Positions 1-13,122 of a DNA stretch of 13,122 bases are shown here, piece after piece. The position numbers were made by a program, and so were the translations under genes. The first letter of the stretch is position 1; each line of letters begins with the position of its first letter. The stretch lies in IMG/VR virus record IMGVR_UViG_2526164662_000025; one strand, given 5' to 3'. A model generated the notes under the pieces. It did no database searches. It had not been told where the DNA came from and saw only the letters and a program-made list of their open reading frames with translations. The DNA is from a virus (lineage: Duplodnaviria > Heunggongvirae > Uroviricota > Caudoviricetes).

Positions 1-616
1 CTGCATTTATCCTTCGTGATATCGGACGTTGGCTGGTCATATTCATCCGCGACAGCCGGACCGCTATAACCGCACTCGTCACCGCGATAGGTCCAGGTGC
101 AGGTGTTGGCCAGCATGATACGTCCCGGAAAAACAGCGCCATCCGTTTCCGTCGGCGTGGACAGTACAAAGGAGGCACTCACCGCGCTCAGTTCGCTGCA
201 CTGCTCGATGCGCCAGCGGCTGATCACCTCCTGCTCCGGATCGGCGTCACTGTTTCCGTTGACGAAGTTCACCGCATCCAGAAAACGGGCGTAAACCTTA
301 CGCCGGACCACCGTTCCGCCGACCAGACTCTGCAGATCTTCCGCCATCCCGGTGACCATACCGTACAGGTTAGAAACCGTCAGCGTGGGGCGCGTACTGG
401 TGCCTTTGCCATTCAGTTCAAAACCGCTCCCCTGAATGGGATACGGCTGATACTGTCGCCCCTGCCAGGTGACCGGCTCACCTTTTTCGTTCTGCTCATT
501 ACAGAAAAATAACGTTCACCACCGACCTCTGTCAGATCGATTTCCCAGAGCACCACGCTGGCCGACTGCTCCGCACGGGTGCATTCATTCAGTGTTTCCT
601 GCCGGATATCCTGCAT
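1..616 (-). pseudogene. L: Minor tail protein L (lambda gpL-like), frameshifted and 3'-truncated by the window edge. The N-terminal 37 codons are in the frame starting at 616; the rest of the conserved protein is in a different frame, open from 506 to position 1.
   Basis: ORF 413..616 starts MQDIRQETLNECTRAEQSASVVLWEIDLTEVGGERYF, then runs into unrelated residues and a stop. My manual translation of the adjacent frame from 506 down to 1 gives FCNEQNEKGEPVTWQGRQYQPYPIQGSGFELNGKGTSTRPTLTVSNLYGMVTGMAEDLQSLVGGTVVRRKVYARFLDAVNFVNGNSDADPEQEVISRWRIEQCSELSAVSASFVLSTPTETDGAVFPGRIMLANTCTWTYRGDECGYSGPAVADEYDQPTSDITKDKC with no stop. The frames switch at an A5 run on the plus strand (505..509), which is T5 in the coding sense. 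Confidence 0.8.
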
Positions 617-945
617 CAGTTCACCACCTGTTTAAACTCTGCGCTGAACTCAACACGCAACATACTGACCTGCGACGACCATTTTGCGCAGGTCACCTTT
701 ATCTGCCTGTAACCATAAGGCGGCGTCCACAGAAAGGCCTTCCAGCCCCCGTGCTCAGCCAGAAACGACTCCAGCGCCGTGGCCTCCTCACGGGAGACAG
801 ACAGCGTCACGCTGTACGTTTTCAGGTCAGCGTTCAGCCCGGCATGCACACGCTGGGAATAGCCATCACCAAAGCGCACCTCCCTGACGGAAGGGGCCGA
901 TGTCACATCCATACCGGGTTTCACTTTCCAGCGGAAGGTTTTCAT
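616..945 (-). CDS. M: Minor tail protein M (lambda gpM-like), 109 aa
   Basis: Protein MKTFRWKVKPGMDV...SAEFKQVVN matches lambda gpM in length and sequence as I recall it. Its start overlaps the H stop as ATGA and its stop overlaps the L start as TGATG, typical translational coupling. Confidence 0.9.
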   Translation of the reverse strand: MKTFRWKVKPGMDVTSAPSVREVRFGDGYSQRVHAGLNADLKTYSVTLSVSREEATALESFLAEHGGWKAFLWTPPYGYRQIKVTCAKWSSQVSMLRVEFSAEFKQVVN

Positions 946-3503
946 CGTCCACCTCCGGAGAACAGGCCACCATCACGCATCTGTGTCTGAATTTCATCAC
1001 GGGCACCCTTGCGGGCCATGTCATACACCGCCTTCAGAGCAGCCGGACCTATCTGCCCGTTCGTGCCGTCGTTGTTAATCACCACATGGTTATTCTGCTC
1101 AAACGTCCCGGACGCCTGCGACCGGCTGTCAGCCAGACTGCCCGGTGTACCGACATAACCACCGGTGGCATAGCCGCGCATCAGCCGGTAGAGATTCCCC
1201 ACGCCAATCCGGCTGGTTGCCTCCTTCGTGAAGACAAATTCACCACGGTGAACAATCCCCGCTGGCTCATATTTGCCGCCGGTTCCCGTAAATCCTCCGG
1301 TTGCAAAATGGAATTTCGCCGCAGCGGCCTGAATGGCTGTACCGCCTGACGCGGATGCGCCGCCACCAACAGCCCCGCCAATGGCGCTGCCGATACTCCC
1401 GACAATCCCCACCATTGCCTGCTTAAGCAGAATTTCTGTCATCATGGACAGCACGGAACGGGTGAAGCTGCGCCAGTTCTGCTCACTGCCGGTCAGCATC
1501 GCTGCCATATTCTGTGCAATACCATCAAAGGTCTGCGTGGCTGCACTTTTTACCTGCGACATACTGTCCGTGGCGCTCTCTTCCCACTCACTCCAGCCGG
1601 ACTTCAGGCCTGCCATCCAGCTCCCGCGAAGCTGGTCTTCAGCCGCCCAGGTCTTTTTCTGCTCTGACATGACGTTATTCAGCGCCAGCGGATTATCGCC
1701 ATACTGTTCCTTCAGGCGCTGTTCCGTGGCTTCCCGTTCTGCCTGCCGGTCAGTCAGCCCCCGGCTTTTCGCATCAATGGCGGCCCGTTTTGCCCGTTGC
1801 TGCTGTGCGAATTTATCCGCCTGCTGCGCCAGCGCGTTCAGGCACTCCTGATACGTAACCTTGTCGCCAAGTGCAGCCAGCTGGCGTTTGTACTCCAGCG
1901 TCTCATCTTTATGCGCCAGCAGGGATTTCTCCTGTGCAGACAGCTGGCGACGTTGCGCCGCCTCCTCCAGTACCGCGAACTGACTCTCCGCCTTCCACAA
2001 ATCCCGGCGCTGCTGGCTGATTTTCTCATTTGCTCCGGCATGCTTCTCCAGCGTCCGGAGTTCTGCCTGAAGCGTCAGCAGGGCAGCATGAGCACTGTCT
2101 TCCTGACGATCGCCCGCAGACACCTTCACGCCGGACTGTTTCGGCTTTTTCAGCGTCGCTTCATAATCCTTTTTCGCCGCCGCCATCAGCGTGTTGTAAT
2201 CCGCCTGCAGGATTTTCCCGTCTTTCAGTGCCTTGTTCAGTTCTTCCTGACGGGCGGTATATTTCTCCAGCGGCGTCTGCAGCCGTTCGTAAGCCTTCTG
2301 CGCCTCTTCGGTATATTTCAGCCGTGACGCTTCGGTATCGCTCTGCTGCTGCGCATTTTTGTCCTGTTGAGTCTGCTGCTCAGCCTTCTTTCGGGCGGCT
2401 TCAAGCGCAAGACGGGCCTTTTCACGATCATCCCAGTAACGCGCCCGCGCTTCATCGTTAACAAAATAATCATCCTTGCGCAGATTCCAGATGTCGTCTG
2501 CTTTCTTAAACGCAGCCTCTGCCTTAATCAGCATCTCCTGCGCGGTATCAGGACGACCAATATCCAGCACCGCATCCCACATGGATTTGAATGCCCGTGC
2601 AGTCCTGTCTGCCCAGGTCTCCAGCGTGCCCATGTTCTCTTTCAGGCGGCGGGTCTGCTCATCAAAGCCTTTCGTGGCGATATCGTTCGCCGCCTGTAAG
2701 GCCCCGGCCTCATCACCGGAACGCTGCAGCTGCGCAACATACGCAATCTGCTCTGCCGTCACGTTACGGAACTGGCGCGCCATCGCAATCAGCCCCGACG
2801 TAGGGTCGGTGGTCAGTTTTCCGAAAGCCTCTGCAACCTTGTCCACCTCCACACCGGATGCAGAAGCAAAACGCGCGACACTCTGGTTGATGGCATCAAA
2901 CTGTTCACCACCACGCACACCGGCATTCACCAGGGCTGCCAGTGACTCACTCGCCTGGTTAAACGTCAGCCCTGCGGCCTGTCCGGCTCTGGAGAGCGTC
3001 AACATGCGATCGGCAGTCAGTCCGGACTGATTACCGGAAAGAACCAGGGTTTTATTAAACGCTGAAAGCGTGGAATCTCCCTGGTACCAGGCGTACGCCA
3101 GCGCACCTGTCGCCACCGCCAGCGAGGTGACCCCGACCATCGGCAGGGTGATCGCACCGGCAAGCCCCCTGAGCATGGGGATCATCCCGCCGAAGGAGTC
3201 CTTCACCTGACCGCCCTGTTGCAGCAGGATCAGCCAGGGATTCTGACCACCGGCAAGCTGCGTGGCGATATCCGTAAACTGTGCGGGCAGGGTGCGCATG
3301 GCCGCTTTATACTGTCCGACGGAAATCCCGGCTTTTTGCGCAGCCAGCGCCTGACGGCTCAGGCCCTGTTCAACAGCAGTGGCGGTTTTTCTGGCGTCAG
3401 TATCCAGTCCTGAAAAATGACGCCTTACCCGGCTCATCTGCTCATCGAAACGGACCGCATCCAGACTCAGGTCAATAATAAGATCACCAACCGGCTGGGA
3501 CAT
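942..3503 (-). CDS. H: Tail tape measure protein (lambda gpH-like), 853 aa
   Basis: 853-aa ORF, the length I recall for lambda gpH. It has the N-terminal MSQPVGDLIIDLSLDAVRFDEQ motif, a long charged coiled-coil-like central region (AEQQTQQDKNAQQQSDTEASRLKYTEEAQKAYERL...) and a Gly-rich C-terminal segment. It lies between G-T and M. Confidence 0.95.
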   Translation of the reverse strand: MSQPVGDLIIDLSLDAVRFDEQMSRVRRHFSGLDTDARKTATAVEQGLSRQALAAQKAGISVGQYKAAMRTLPAQFTDIATQLAGGQNPWLILLQQGGQVKDSFGGMIPMLRGLAGAITLPMVGVTSLAVATGALAYAWYQGDSTLSAFNKTLVLSGNQSGLTADRMLTLSRAGQAAGLTFNQASESLAALVNAGVRGGEQFDAINQSVARFASASGVEVDKVAEAFGKLTTDPTSGLIAMARQFRNVTAEQIAYVAQLQRSGDEAGALQAANDIATKGFDEQTRRLKENMGTLETWADRTARAFKSMWDAVLDIGRPDTAQEMLIKAEAAFKKADDIWNLRKDDYFVNDEARARYWDDREKARLALEAARKKAEQQTQQDKNAQQQSDTEASRLKYTEEAQKAYERLQTPLEKYTARQEELNKALKDGKILQADYNTLMAAAKKDYEATLKKPKQSGVKVSAGDRQEDSAHAALLTLQAELRTLEKHAGANEKISQQRRDLWKAESQFAVLEEAAQRRQLSAQEKSLLAHKDETLEYKRQLAALGDKVTYQECLNALAQQADKFAQQQRAKRAAIDAKSRGLTDRQAEREATEQRLKEQYGDNPLALNNVMSEQKKTWAAEDQLRGSWMAGLKSGWSEWEESATDSMSQVKSAATQTFDGIAQNMAAMLTGSEQNWRSFTRSVLSMMTEILLKQAMVGIVGSIGSAIGGAVGGGASASGGTAIQAAAAKFHFATGGFTGTGGKYEPAGIVHRGEFVFTKEATSRIGVGNLYRLMRGYATGGYVGTPGSLADSRSQASGTFEQNNHVVINNDGTNGQIGPAALKAVYDMARKGARDEIQTQMRDGGLFSGGGR

Positions 3504-5128: not shown

Positions 5129-6467
<1,339 letters not shown>

Positions 6468-6470
6468 GCC
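6468..6470. repeat. Right copy of the 3-bp target site duplication (GCC)
   Basis: Identical to 5207..5209. On the minus strand it encodes Gly106 of U, the codon at which the IS is inserted. Confidence 0.75.
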
Positions 6471-6785
6471 CTGCGTAACCATCGTGGTAATCAGGCCTGA
6501 CAGTGCCGGGATCGCACTCATCGCCGGATAAATCCGGCTTTCCATCCACGAATCCAGCTCTGAATCCGGCACCTGAGCAGGCAGGAAAACTTCAATATGC
6601 AGCTCCGCCTGCCAGGTATCGCTGTCCAGCGCTTCGCCCGTGTATTCAGCGCCGGTGAGATAAACAGCAATTGCCGGAAAATCCGCCTCATCAAAAACAG
6701 CGGGGCGACCATCAAACAGCGTCGCCCCGTGTTCATGCTGCTCGAGTGCATCCAGCACTGCAGCACGGATATCAGTATGTTTCAT
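6468..6785 (-). pseudogene. U: 5' fragment of tail terminator gene U (codons 1-106), disrupted by the IS insertion. As it stands it would give a 118-aa chimera ending in 12 IS-encoded residues.
   Basis: MKHTDIRAAVLDALEQHEHGATLFDGRPAVFDEADFPAIAVYLTGAEYTGEALDSDTWQAELHIEVFLPAQVPDSELDSWMESRIYPAMSAIPALSGLITTMVTQG matches lambda gpU. After Gly106 the reading frame enters the IS right end ([12 protein letters not shown], stop at 6429). Confidence 0.9.
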
Positions 6786-11119: not shown

Positions 11120-12701
11120 GTGGTGTTGTCTCCTCTTCCGGCCTGCGACTCTCCGCTATCTGCTGCTCATACGCCTGCGCTATCCACACCGGACGTGAGA
11201 GTCCGGCTTTTTGTCGCTCAGCAGATTCCCTGACCTGCTGGCGGAAAATGTCCTGATAATCCTCGCCCATCAGCGCCAGCTCTTTCTCATACGTGCTCAG
11301 TCCGGCCTCAATGCGCATCACCGATTCCTGAACCTCCTTGAGCCCGTCAATGGCCATTCTTCCGGCTCCTATCCACTCTGCCCGTGACCAGGCTGATCGC
11401 GCCTGATAAAAATCAAAACGTGCCCGTGGCGGACGAATAATCCCCCGAAGAAGTGCCTCTTCCAGCCAGCAGGAAAACATCTGCGTGGCCAGCCGGGCCG
11501 CAATAAATTTTCGCCGCCCCATAAAATAGCGCCACGACTCATTGGCGGAGGCGCGGGCACTTGAGTAACTGACCTTCGAGTAATCACGGGACAACTGTTC
11601 GTAGGAAACGCCAAGACCGGCGGCGATATACCGCAGCAACGCCTGTTCAAGCGCAGAAAATCCATTGTCTGAATCCTGCGCAGTCTGTAGTTTCAGATCA
11701 TCACCAGGGAAAAGGTGCGGAATTTTGACACCGCCCAGTGTCACGTTATTCGTGTCATACCAGCTGGAGAACTTCTCCAGAATATTAATAAGCGGATTAT
11801 CTTTCTGCTCCTGTGGCGCGCCGGCGATATATTCAAAGGCCTTTTCGGTATCAAGTTCACTTTCAATCGTCGCTGCATACATGGCTTTCACAATGGCCGA
11901 CTGAAGCTGTGTTGCCTGCAGGGAATCCAGCATCTTCAGCCGTTCCATGACGCTGTAAAACTGATTAGCCCCACGGGTCTGCCCGTCCTCCACCGGCTCG
12001 AAAATATGCAGCATGGCCGGACGCCCGGTGGGTAGTTCACGCGGGATCCGTTCCCATCGTCCACTACCAGAGAACGGAAAATCATCCTCACAGATATGGT
12101 ACGCAACGGCACGGCCATATCGATCGACCTCCACCCCGGCCCGCAGAAAACGGTTCCCCATACCGTGTCCTGGCGTGTCCACCCGTTTCGGACTCACGGC
12201 TTTAAAACGCGTACGAAACAGTTGCGTGCTCTCCGTATCCCAGACCGGCTGCACAAAGATTTCGCCGTTAAACGCATGAACGCCCACACCTTCACGGATA
12301 AATTCCGTAAACGTGCGTTTCCCTTCCACGTCGATCTCGCCAGACATCCCTTCGGCGTATTCCGACCAGGCCGCCTCCACCTCATCGACAAAACTTTTTG
12401 CTGCAGTCTCCCGCATCCCCAGCCAGCGCCAGTTCGGACGGTAGCTGATCAGAAACATATGCCCGACAATATGATCCTTATGCAGTGCCACCGCATTGGC
12501 CGCTATCCCGTTATTGCGCACCAGATCATCTGCACGGGCATTGCCCAGACGCAACGCGGGCAACAGGGCCGCATCGGCACTCTGCGCCGGTGGCAACCAC
12601 TCCGCCATTTGCCCGCCAAATCCTGCACCGCCCCCGTTGTAGCTGAGGCTCTCCCGAAGCGGAACACCGTTCACATCAATCAGGACAGGCGTTCGTTTCA
12701 T
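11109..12701 (-). CDS. B: Portal protein B (lambda gpB-like), 530 aa
   Basis: Matches lambda gpB along its length as I recall it (for example GNARADDLVRNNG, FEPVEDGQTRGAN, LQSAIVKAMYAATIESELDT, LLRYIAAGLGVSYEQLSR, WIGAGRMAIDGLKEVQE). Its start overlaps the W stop as ATGA. Confidence 0.95.
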   Translation of the reverse strand: MKRTPVLIDVNGVPLRESLSYNGGGAGFGGQMAEWLPPAQSADAALLPALRLGNARADDLVRNNGIAANAVALHKDHIVGHMFLISYRPNWRWLGMRETAAKSFVDEVEAAWSEYAEGMSGEIDVEGKRTFTEFIREGVGVHAFNGEIFVQPVWDTESTQLFRTRFKAVSPKRVDTPGHGMGNRFLRAGVEVDRYGRAVAYHICEDDFPFSGSGRWERIPRELPTGRPAMLHIFEPVEDGQTRGANQFYSVMERLKMLDSLQATQLQSAIVKAMYAATIESELDTEKAFEYIAGAPQEQKDNPLINILEKFSSWYDTNNVTLGGVKIPHLFPGDDLKLQTAQDSDNGFSALEQALLRYIAAGLGVSYEQLSRDYSKVSYSSARASANESWRYFMGRRKFIAARLATQMFSCWLEEALLRGIIRPPRARFDFYQARSAWSRAEWIGAGRMAIDGLKEVQESVMRIEAGLSTYEKELALMGEDYQDIFRQQVRESAERQKAGLSRPVWIAQAYEQQIAESRRPEEETTPRET

Positions 12702-12904: not shown

Positions 12905-13122
12905 TCACTCCTCCGGACAGCTTCGCTGCCAGTTCTTTCAGGGTTGGCCGGGTCGTCTCTTCTTCCCGGGATTTTGCCAGTACAGCCAGATCAAGCTGCC
13001 AGCGTTGCACGGACACACGTAATGCCGCGTAGGCATACACCAGGCAGTCCAGCGCTTCGTTACGCCGCTTTTTGTTATCCCACAGCAGACGCATCTTTCC
13101 TTTTTCCCACTTCTCCACCAGC
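12888..13122 (-). CDS. A: Terminase large subunit A (lambda gpA-like), C-terminal end only; the 5' part lies beyond the window
   Basis: Minus-strand frame is open to the window edge and ends at 12888, overlapping the W start by 17 nt. The C-terminal residues (...KGKMRLLWDNKKRRNEALDCLVYAYAA...) and the position immediately upstream of W fit the lambda terminase large subunit. Confidence 0.8.
   Translation of the reverse strand, partial: LVEKWEKGKMRLLWDNKKRRNEALDCLVYAYAALRVSVQRWQLDLAVLAKSREEETTRPTLKELAAKLSGGVNGYSR

What the first reader, a model, noticed from the sequence alone, without database searches (positions are those of the whole stretch)
413..616. Tail gene L is frameshifted at a homopolymer run (A5 at 505..509 on the plus strand)
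The first 37 codons of L (MQDIRQ...EVGGERYF) are in one frame, and the highly lambda-like remainder (FCNEQNEKGEPVTWQGRQYQPYPIQ...) is in the adjacent frame, stop-free from 506 to the window start. One extra T in the coding-sense run (TAT TTT TTC TGT) would restore a single ORF. This is either a genuine inactivating mutation, consistent with a decaying prophage that also carries the IS in U, or a homopolymer sequencing error. L has no known programmed frameshift.
Basis: seen in the sequence. Interest (0 to 1): 0.5.

Follow-up and report, generated by a model that had tools for sequence, protein, structure and literature searches.

The report
One-base frameshift in prophage tail gene L
A lambda-type tail gene in this draft E. 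coli contig is broken by one missing T in a run of six, and this is either a base-calling error or a trivial recent mutation in a prophage that was already dead, so it is ordinary.

Summary
Gene L (minus strand, ATG at 616) reads 37 codons and then meets a T5 run (A5 at 505-509 on the plus strand). All intact homologues have T6 there. Frame 0 ends at 413 after 67 codons, and the rest of L continues in the -1 frame to the window start.

The window is a complete 13,122-bp contig (AIGU01000052.1) of the 2012 draft genome of E. coli DEC10F. Its closest relatives are identical over 720 bp of L and M except for this one base. It is also the only indel in 13.1 kb against the nearest complete genome.

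The prophage is already defective, because a 1258-bp IS3-family element splits gene U. The same insertion is present in the relatives that carry T6.

In 5,426 complete E. coli genomes I counted T6 at 6,741 places, T5 at 7 and T7 at none. Five of the six T5 genomes are assemblies with frameshifts in all neighbouring tail genes. Isolated T5 calls occur only in UM146 and in a second draft from the same DECA project.

I rate a homopolymer miscall at about 0.6 and a genuine private deletion at about 0.35. Only reads or Sanger sequencing can decide. Nothing supports recoding. Interest is low.

The parts
505..509 (-). The T5 run in coding sense (A5 on the plus strand). Intact L genes have T6 here, and this is the site of the one-base difference.
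   Evidence: It is the only indel in 13.1 kb against OkiPb01717.
413..616 (-). The 67-aa ORF as deposited (protein EHW93056.1). It holds L codons 1-37, then 30 out-of-frame codons and a TGA.
   Evidence: It has no Pfam match on its own.
1..515 (-). The rest of L (codons 38-205) in the -1 frame. It is cut by the contig end, so the last 82 nt of the gene are not in the window.
   Evidence: The downstream piece matches PF05100 and so does the repaired product.
616..945 (-). Gene M (109 aa), intact. Its stop overlaps the ATG of L, as in lambda.
   Evidence: PF05939.
942..3503 (-). Gene H, the tape measure (853 aa), intact.
5210..6467 (+). A 1258-bp IS3-family insertion sequence with TG...CA ends and imperfect inverted repeats. 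It is flanked by a 3-bp duplication GCC (5207-5209 and 6468-6470) and it splits gene U.
   Evidence: The relative is annotated 'IS3 family transposase, programmed frameshift'. One search shows rve and HTH_Tnp_1 domains.
6468..6785 (-). The N-terminal fragment of tail terminator gene U.
   Evidence: PF06141.
5129..5209 (-). The C-terminal fragment of gene U.
   Evidence: using the coordinates of the annotated relative shifted by 113.

Best explanation
The deposited contig has five T where gene L has six. Most likely this is a homopolymer-length miscall in the consensus of a 2012 draft assembly (E. coli DEC10F, contig AIGU01000052.1). On this reading the real gene is an intact T6 L, and there is no biological mechanism. 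Shown here: the base is missing, the variant is private to this assembly, and the same T5 call recurs in error-prone assemblies. Inferred: that the miscall happened in this particular assembly.
For: 1. The window is a draft contig of DEC10F.
2. Over 720 bp of L and M it is identical to O26:H11 11368 and to OkiPb01717 except for this one T. OkiPb01717 carries the same IS-in-U prophage but has T6. No complete E. coli genome contains the window's 71-mer with T5.
3. Counts made by the same method in 5,426 complete genomes give T6 at 6,741 places, T5 at 7 places in 6 genomes, and T7 at none.
4. Five of those six genomes have H, M, K, I and J near the T5 annotated as frameshifted too. That marks them as indel-ridden assemblies.
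5. The only isolated T5 among complete genomes is in UM146.
6. The only T5 hit in IMG/VR is another draft from the same 76-genome DECA project, AIGA01000036.1, in a different prophage. That is an excess over the background of about 0.1%.
7. Truncated L products in the protein database shift overwhelmingly at homopolymer runs (T6, A5, G4). The ones I looked up come from noisy assemblies.
8. A published comparison flagged frameshifts in cas genes of other DEC drafts as possible sequencing or assembly errors (PMC5592225).
9. The site lies about 500 bp from a contig end.
Against: This is the only indel in 13.1 kb against the nearest complete genome, and every other gene in the window is full length. 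The contig is therefore not generally noisy. The prophage is already dead because of the IS in U, so a real L frameshift would cost nothing. Sister lineages have acquired lesions of their own: a stop in Z in OkiPb01717 and IS30 in DEC9B. A probably genuine T5 exists elsewhere. It is reproduced in seven Logan runs, in a prophage whose H gene is split the same way in the two runs whose contigs include H. I could not retrieve the sequencing platform of the DECA project. My recollection that 454 reads were used is unverified. If the assembly is Illumina-only, an error at a T6 run would be unlikely.
Confidence: 0.6

Rival explanations
1. This is a genuine, recent one-base deletion from replication slippage in the T6 run. 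It turns L into a pseudogene in a prophage that was already non-functional. The change is neutral decay and is private to the DEC10F lineage.
For: The IS3-family element splits tail terminator gene U, and the same insertion is present in OkiPb01717. Two further relatives, CAU16175 and PEC240, list an IS3-family transposase under their match to the window, though I did not check the insertion site there. So the prophage was defective before these strains diverged. Relatives carry independent lesions (stop in Z; IS30). The window differs from OkiPb01717 by 46 substitutions, so real divergence exists, and one indel alongside them is plausible. The L run is one of only about five runs of 6 nt or more in 13 kb, so it is a likely target for slippage. 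No other indel or broken gene in the contig points to poor consensus quality. A T5 reproduced in seven sequencing runs of another lineage shows that the mutation does occur.
Against: No relative shares it. Among about 6,750 L copies in complete genomes, many of them in defective prophages, only one isolated T5 is seen. A second isolated T5 in another draft of the same sequencing project is unexpected if both are natural.
Confidence: 0.36
2. The T5 allele is functional. Full-length gpL would be made by -1 ribosomal slippage of tRNA-Phe on U_UUU_U, or by RNA polymerase slippage on the run. That would make it a recoding site or a reversible switch.
For: A -1 slip after codon 37 (UUU re-pairing with the overlapping UUU) would give exactly the wild-type sequence Y-F-F-C. 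The two frames overlap over about 100 nt, between the -1 frame TGA at 518-516 and the frame-0 stop at 415-413.
Against: There is no canonical X XXY YYZ heptamer, because the frame-0 codons are UAU UUU UCU. The local RNA fold is not distinguishable from shuffled sequence (z = -1.5). The two-frame arrangement is not conserved: T6 is found at 6,741 places and T5 at 7, mostly in noisy assemblies. The flanks are identical to those of T6 alleles, so no recoding signal has evolved. T7 is never seen, and a tract of 6 is short for phase variation.
Confidence: 0.03

Closest known systems
Bacteriophage lambda gene L (minor tail / tail-tip protein gpL, Pfam PF05100)
   Same: After one T is added, 203 of 205 residues are identical. 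The gene order H-M-L is the same, and the M stop overlaps the L start in the same way.
   Different: The reading frame is broken after codon 37 by T5 in place of T6. The last 27 codons are missing because the contig ends.
Defective lambdoid prophages of EHEC/EPEC O26, O103 and O111 genomes (for example the homologous prophage of O26:H11 11368 and of strain OkiPb01717)
   Same: The whole window is 99.6% identical to the OkiPb01717 prophage, including the same IS3-family insertion in U.
   Different: Those prophages have T6 and an intact L. OkiPb01717 instead has an internal stop in Z that the window lacks.
Homopolymer-length errors of pyrosequencing and uncorrected long-read assemblies
   Same: It is a single-base undercall in a run of six identical bases. 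The same T5 call appears in assemblies whose neighbouring genes are all frameshifted.
   Different: Here it is the only indel in 13 kb.
Programmed -1 frameshift of lambda G/GT
   Same: It lies in the same tail gene cluster. The real G/GT slippery heptamer GGGAAAG is present and intact at 3948-3942.
   Different: The L site has no conserved heptamer, no conserved two-frame arrangement and no supporting structure.

Membership tests
Lambda gpL / Phage_tail_L (PF05100) | Sequence homology over the length of the protein | tested here: met
   The repaired product matches PF05100 at E=2e-89. It is 203/205 identical to lambda L and 205/205 to O26 L.
Lambda gpL / Phage_tail_L (PF05100) | Position directly after H and M in a lambda-type tail cluster | tested here: met
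   H is at 942-3503 and M at 616-945, both on the minus strand. Relatives continue with K, I and J.
Lambda gpL / Phage_tail_L (PF05100) | One uninterrupted reading frame | tested here: not met
   T5 instead of T6 shifts the frame after codon 37.
Homopolymer sequencing or assembly error | The indel lies in a homopolymer run and is private to one assembly, while the flanks are identical to those of relatives | tested here: met
Homopolymer sequencing or assembly error | The same miscall recurs in demonstrably error-prone assemblies | tested here: met
   Five of six complete genomes with T5 have all neighbouring tail genes frameshifted. Noisy GenBank assemblies show it too.
Homopolymer sequencing or assembly error | Raw reads disagree with the consensus, or the platform is known to be error-prone at homopolymers | not testable with these tools
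   No reads are available. The DECA announcement (PMC3370608) is not held.
Pseudogene in a decaying prophage | Other inactivating lesions in the same prophage | tested here: met
   An IS3-family element with a 3-bp target duplication splits U.
Pseudogene in a decaying prophage | The lesion is inherited by related strains or confirmed by independent sequencing | tested here: not met
   No complete genome has the window's 71-mer with T5. The exact 67-aa product is otherwise found only on an unrelated metagenome contig, 87% identical with 58 gap openings.
Programmed -1 ribosomal frameshift | A slippery heptamer X XXY YYZ in the zero frame | tested here: not met
   The zero-frame codons are UAU UUU UCU. 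Only single-tRNA slippage on UUU is possible.
Programmed -1 ribosomal frameshift | The two-frame arrangement is conserved among homologues | tested here: not met
   T6 at 6,741 places against T5 at 7 in complete E. coli genomes. In IMG/VR the T6 pattern gave at least 120 hits and T5 gave 1.
Programmed -1 ribosomal frameshift | A stimulatory RNA structure downstream | tested here: inconclusive
   The minimum free energy is -34.5 kcal/mol with z = -1.5 against shuffles, and the run itself pairs with the downstream A5.
Phase-variable simple-sequence contingency locus | A long tract with several lengths common in the population | tested here: not met
   The tract is 6 nt. T5 makes up about 0.1% of copies and T7 none.

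The most novel reading that the evidence does not exclude
The T5 allele is real and leaky. A -1 slip of tRNA-Phe on the U run, or an extra U added by RNA polymerase, would regenerate exactly wild-type gpL at a low level. The T6 tract would then be a recurrent mutational hot spot that dims tail production in resident prophages without abolishing it.
Probability: 0.03. Interest if true: 0.3.

Novelty: already known. Interest (0 to 1): 0.05.

Why it matters
It matters little. If the T5 is an error, L of this prophage is intact and the database entry EHW93056.1 is an artefact. That is a reminder that frameshifts at homopolymers in older draft assemblies should not be read as biology. If it is real, it is one more neutral lesion in a prophage already inactivated by an IS in its tail terminator gene. 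The useful by-product is a base rate. At this T6 run, complete E. coli genomes show T5 in about 0.1% of copies, and almost all of those are in assemblies with many other frameshifts.

Tried and rejected
1. I looked for the exact T5 allele elsewhere. The GTDB representative genomes gave 0 hits. IMG/VR gave 1 hit, which turned out to be another DECA draft.
2. Ten assemblies share the T5 product P0039, and I first took this as independent confirmation that T5 is inherited. I rejected that reading. The look-up retrieves only sequences that already have T5, and nine of the ten are full of sporadic homopolymer indels.
3. I tested whether the end of the contig is a collapsed repeat of other prophage L copies. 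A second L copy in O26 RM10386 is only 92% identical, so this gives no support either way.
4. I tried to establish the DECA sequencing platform from the literature. The announcement is not held, and searches for DEC10F, DECA and UM146 gave nothing usable.
5. The RNA fold gave no sign of a frameshift stimulator.
6. The metagenome contig with the identical 67-aa product is divergent and rich in indels, so it is not a relative and not a confirmation.

Full report
**What is in the sequence.**
- On the minus strand the window carries a lambda-type head and tail cluster. It runs from terminase A (cut at 13122) through W, B, C, D, E, FI, FII, Z, U, V, G, T, H and M to L, which is cut at base 1.
- L starts at ATG 616-614, overlapping the stop of M.
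- Frame 0 reads 37 correct codons (MQDIRQ...GGERYF), then 30 out-of-frame codons, and stops at 415-413. This is the 67-aa ORF at 413-616.
- The rest of L is in the -1 frame, open from 515 to base 1.
- The join is a T5 run in coding sense, which is A5 at 505-509 on the plus strand.
- Lambda J02459, O26:H11 11368 and OkiPb01717 all have T6 there.
- Adding one T gives a product 205/205 identical to L of O26:H11 11368 and 203/205 identical to lambda gpL. It matches PF05100 at E=2e-89. The 67-aa ORF alone matches no Pfam family.

**Where the window comes from.**
- An exact look-up of the 67-aa product shows that the window is the complete 13,122-bp contig AIGU01000052.1 of assembly GCA_000250095.2, E. 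coli DEC10F. The product is deposited as EHW93056.1.
- The accession lies in the range published for the 76-genome DECA collection.
- Both window ends are therefore assembly breaks. The missing 82 nt of L are an assembly matter, not biology.

**Context: the prophage is already defective.**
- A 1258-bp IS3-family element (5210-6467) has TG...CA ends, imperfect terminal inverted repeats and a 3-bp target duplication GCC. It splits tail terminator gene U.
- The nearest complete genome is OkiPb01717, at 99.6% identity over the whole window. It has the same insertion.
- Two other relatives, CAU16175 and PEC240, list an IS3-family transposase under their matches. I did not check the insertion site in them.
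- DEC9B and two bovine strains carry an IS30 in the homologous prophage.
- OkiPb01717 has an internal stop in Z that the window lacks.
- This is therefore a vertically inherited, decaying prophage. A real L frameshift would cost it nothing.

**How private the T5 is.**
- Over 720 bp of L and M the window is identical to O26:H11 11368 and to OkiPb01717 except for the missing T.
- Against OkiPb01717 the whole window shows 46 substitutions, partly clustered at 11322-11967 and 1131-1239, and exactly one indel, which is this one.
- No complete E. coli genome contains the window's 71-mer with T5.
- The exact 67-aa product occurs otherwise only on a metagenome contig that is 87% identical with 58 gap openings. 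That contig is unrelated and noisy.

**Base rates at this run.** I used short queries that can only seed across the run, and searched 5,426 complete E. coli genomes.

| Run length | Places found |
|---|---|
| T6 | 6,741, in 3,879 genomes |
| T5 | 7, in 6 genomes |
| T7 | 0 |

- I inspected all six T5 genomes. In ESBL 15, 377323_2f, ECO_1_S, SCU-301 and CFSAN029787, tail genes next to the T5 (among H, M, K, I and J) are also annotated as frameshifted. That is the signature of uncorrected homopolymer errors.
- Only UM146, whose record dates from about 2010 as I recall, has an isolated L frameshift.
- That single hit is 100% identical to AIGA01000036.1, another DECA draft. There the T5 sits in a different L allele and a different prophage, and its neighbours are intact.
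- In the protein database, 33 of 134 retrieved short L N-terminal products carry the T5 junction YFSVMSRT. Many others shift at the A5 run 22 nt downstream or at a G4 run. Some shift out of frame and back again.
- The NCBI assemblies I looked up are indel-ridden.
- One T5 is probably genuine. Seven Logan runs (SRR16936274-80) carry it, in a prophage whose H gene is split the same way in the two runs whose contigs include H.

**Weighing the two ordinary explanations.**
- For error:
  - The variant is private.
  - Clean, isolated T5 calls are essentially absent from modern complete genomes, at 1 in about 6,750 copies.
  - Two such calls nevertheless turn up in drafts of a single 76-genome project.
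  - Another paper has questioned frameshifts in DEC drafts as possible errors (PMC5592225).
  - The site is about 500 bp from a contig end.
- For a real mutation:
  - The contig shows no other indel or broken gene.
  - The prophage is under no selection.
  - The run is one of only about five runs of 6 nt or more in the window.
  - A genuine T5 exists elsewhere.
- The sequencing platform would weigh heavily, but I could not retrieve it. My recollection that 454 reads were involved is unverified.
- I put error at about 0.6 and a genuine deletion at about 0.36.

**Recoding.**
- A -1 slip of tRNA-Phe after codon 37 would restore exactly the wild-type Y-F-F-C sequence. Some leakiness is therefore conceivable.
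- There is no X XXY YYZ heptamer.
- The local fold is unremarkable, with z = -1.5.
- The flanks are identical to those of T6 alleles.
- The two-frame arrangement is not conserved anywhere.
- I give this 0.03.
- The genuine programmed frameshift of this cluster, GGGAAAG at the G/T junction, is intact at 3948-3942.

**Verdict.** The feature is ordinary: most likely a consensus error in an old draft, otherwise a trivial neutral lesion in a prophage that was already dead. Reads or a Sanger trace from DEC10F would settle it.

Noticed in passing
window 5210-6467 (duplications 5207-5209 and 6468-6470): A 1258-bp IS3-family element splits tail terminator gene U. It has its transposase on the plus strand, an A6 run at 5542-5547 that I presume is its own frameshift site, TG...CA ends and a 3-bp GCC target duplication. 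The same insertion is in OkiPb01717. CAU16175 and PEC240 list an IS3-family transposase under their matches.
   Followed up: partly
window 3948-3942 (minus strand): The known lambda G/GT programmed -1 slippery heptamer GGGAAAG is present and intact at the end of G.
   Followed up: partly
window 1 and 13122: The window is a complete draft contig (AIGU01000052.1). Both ends fall inside genes: L at base 1 and terminase large subunit A at 13122. These truncations are assembly breaks.
   Followed up: yes
window 11322-11967 and 1131-1239: The substitutions against OkiPb01717 are clustered, with 28 of the 46 in the portal gene stretch and 6 in H. This looks like recombination patches rather than uniform divergence.
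   Followed up: no
window 7189 (gene Z); L002 11766-12341: The sister prophage in OkiPb01717 has an internal stop in Z where the window is intact. The same defective prophage is decaying independently in different strains.
   Followed up: partly
window 483-487 (A5 in coding sense, GAA AAA GGT): Among truncated L products in the protein database, this A5 run 22 nt downstream of the T run is at least as common a frameshift site (junction NEQNEK|VSRS).
   Followed up: partly
L136 3100-3125 (AIGA01000036.1) and L143 (UM146, NC_017632.1 2218273-2218970): Two other assemblies from 2010-2012 carry an isolated T5 in L with intact neighbouring tail genes. One is a second DECA draft and the other is UM146.
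   Followed up: partly
L148-L150 (Logan SRR16936274-SRR16936280): Seven runs of one series carry T5 in L. In the two contigs that include H, the gene is split into the same four pieces. This is probably a genuinely decayed prophage with a real T5.
   Followed up: no
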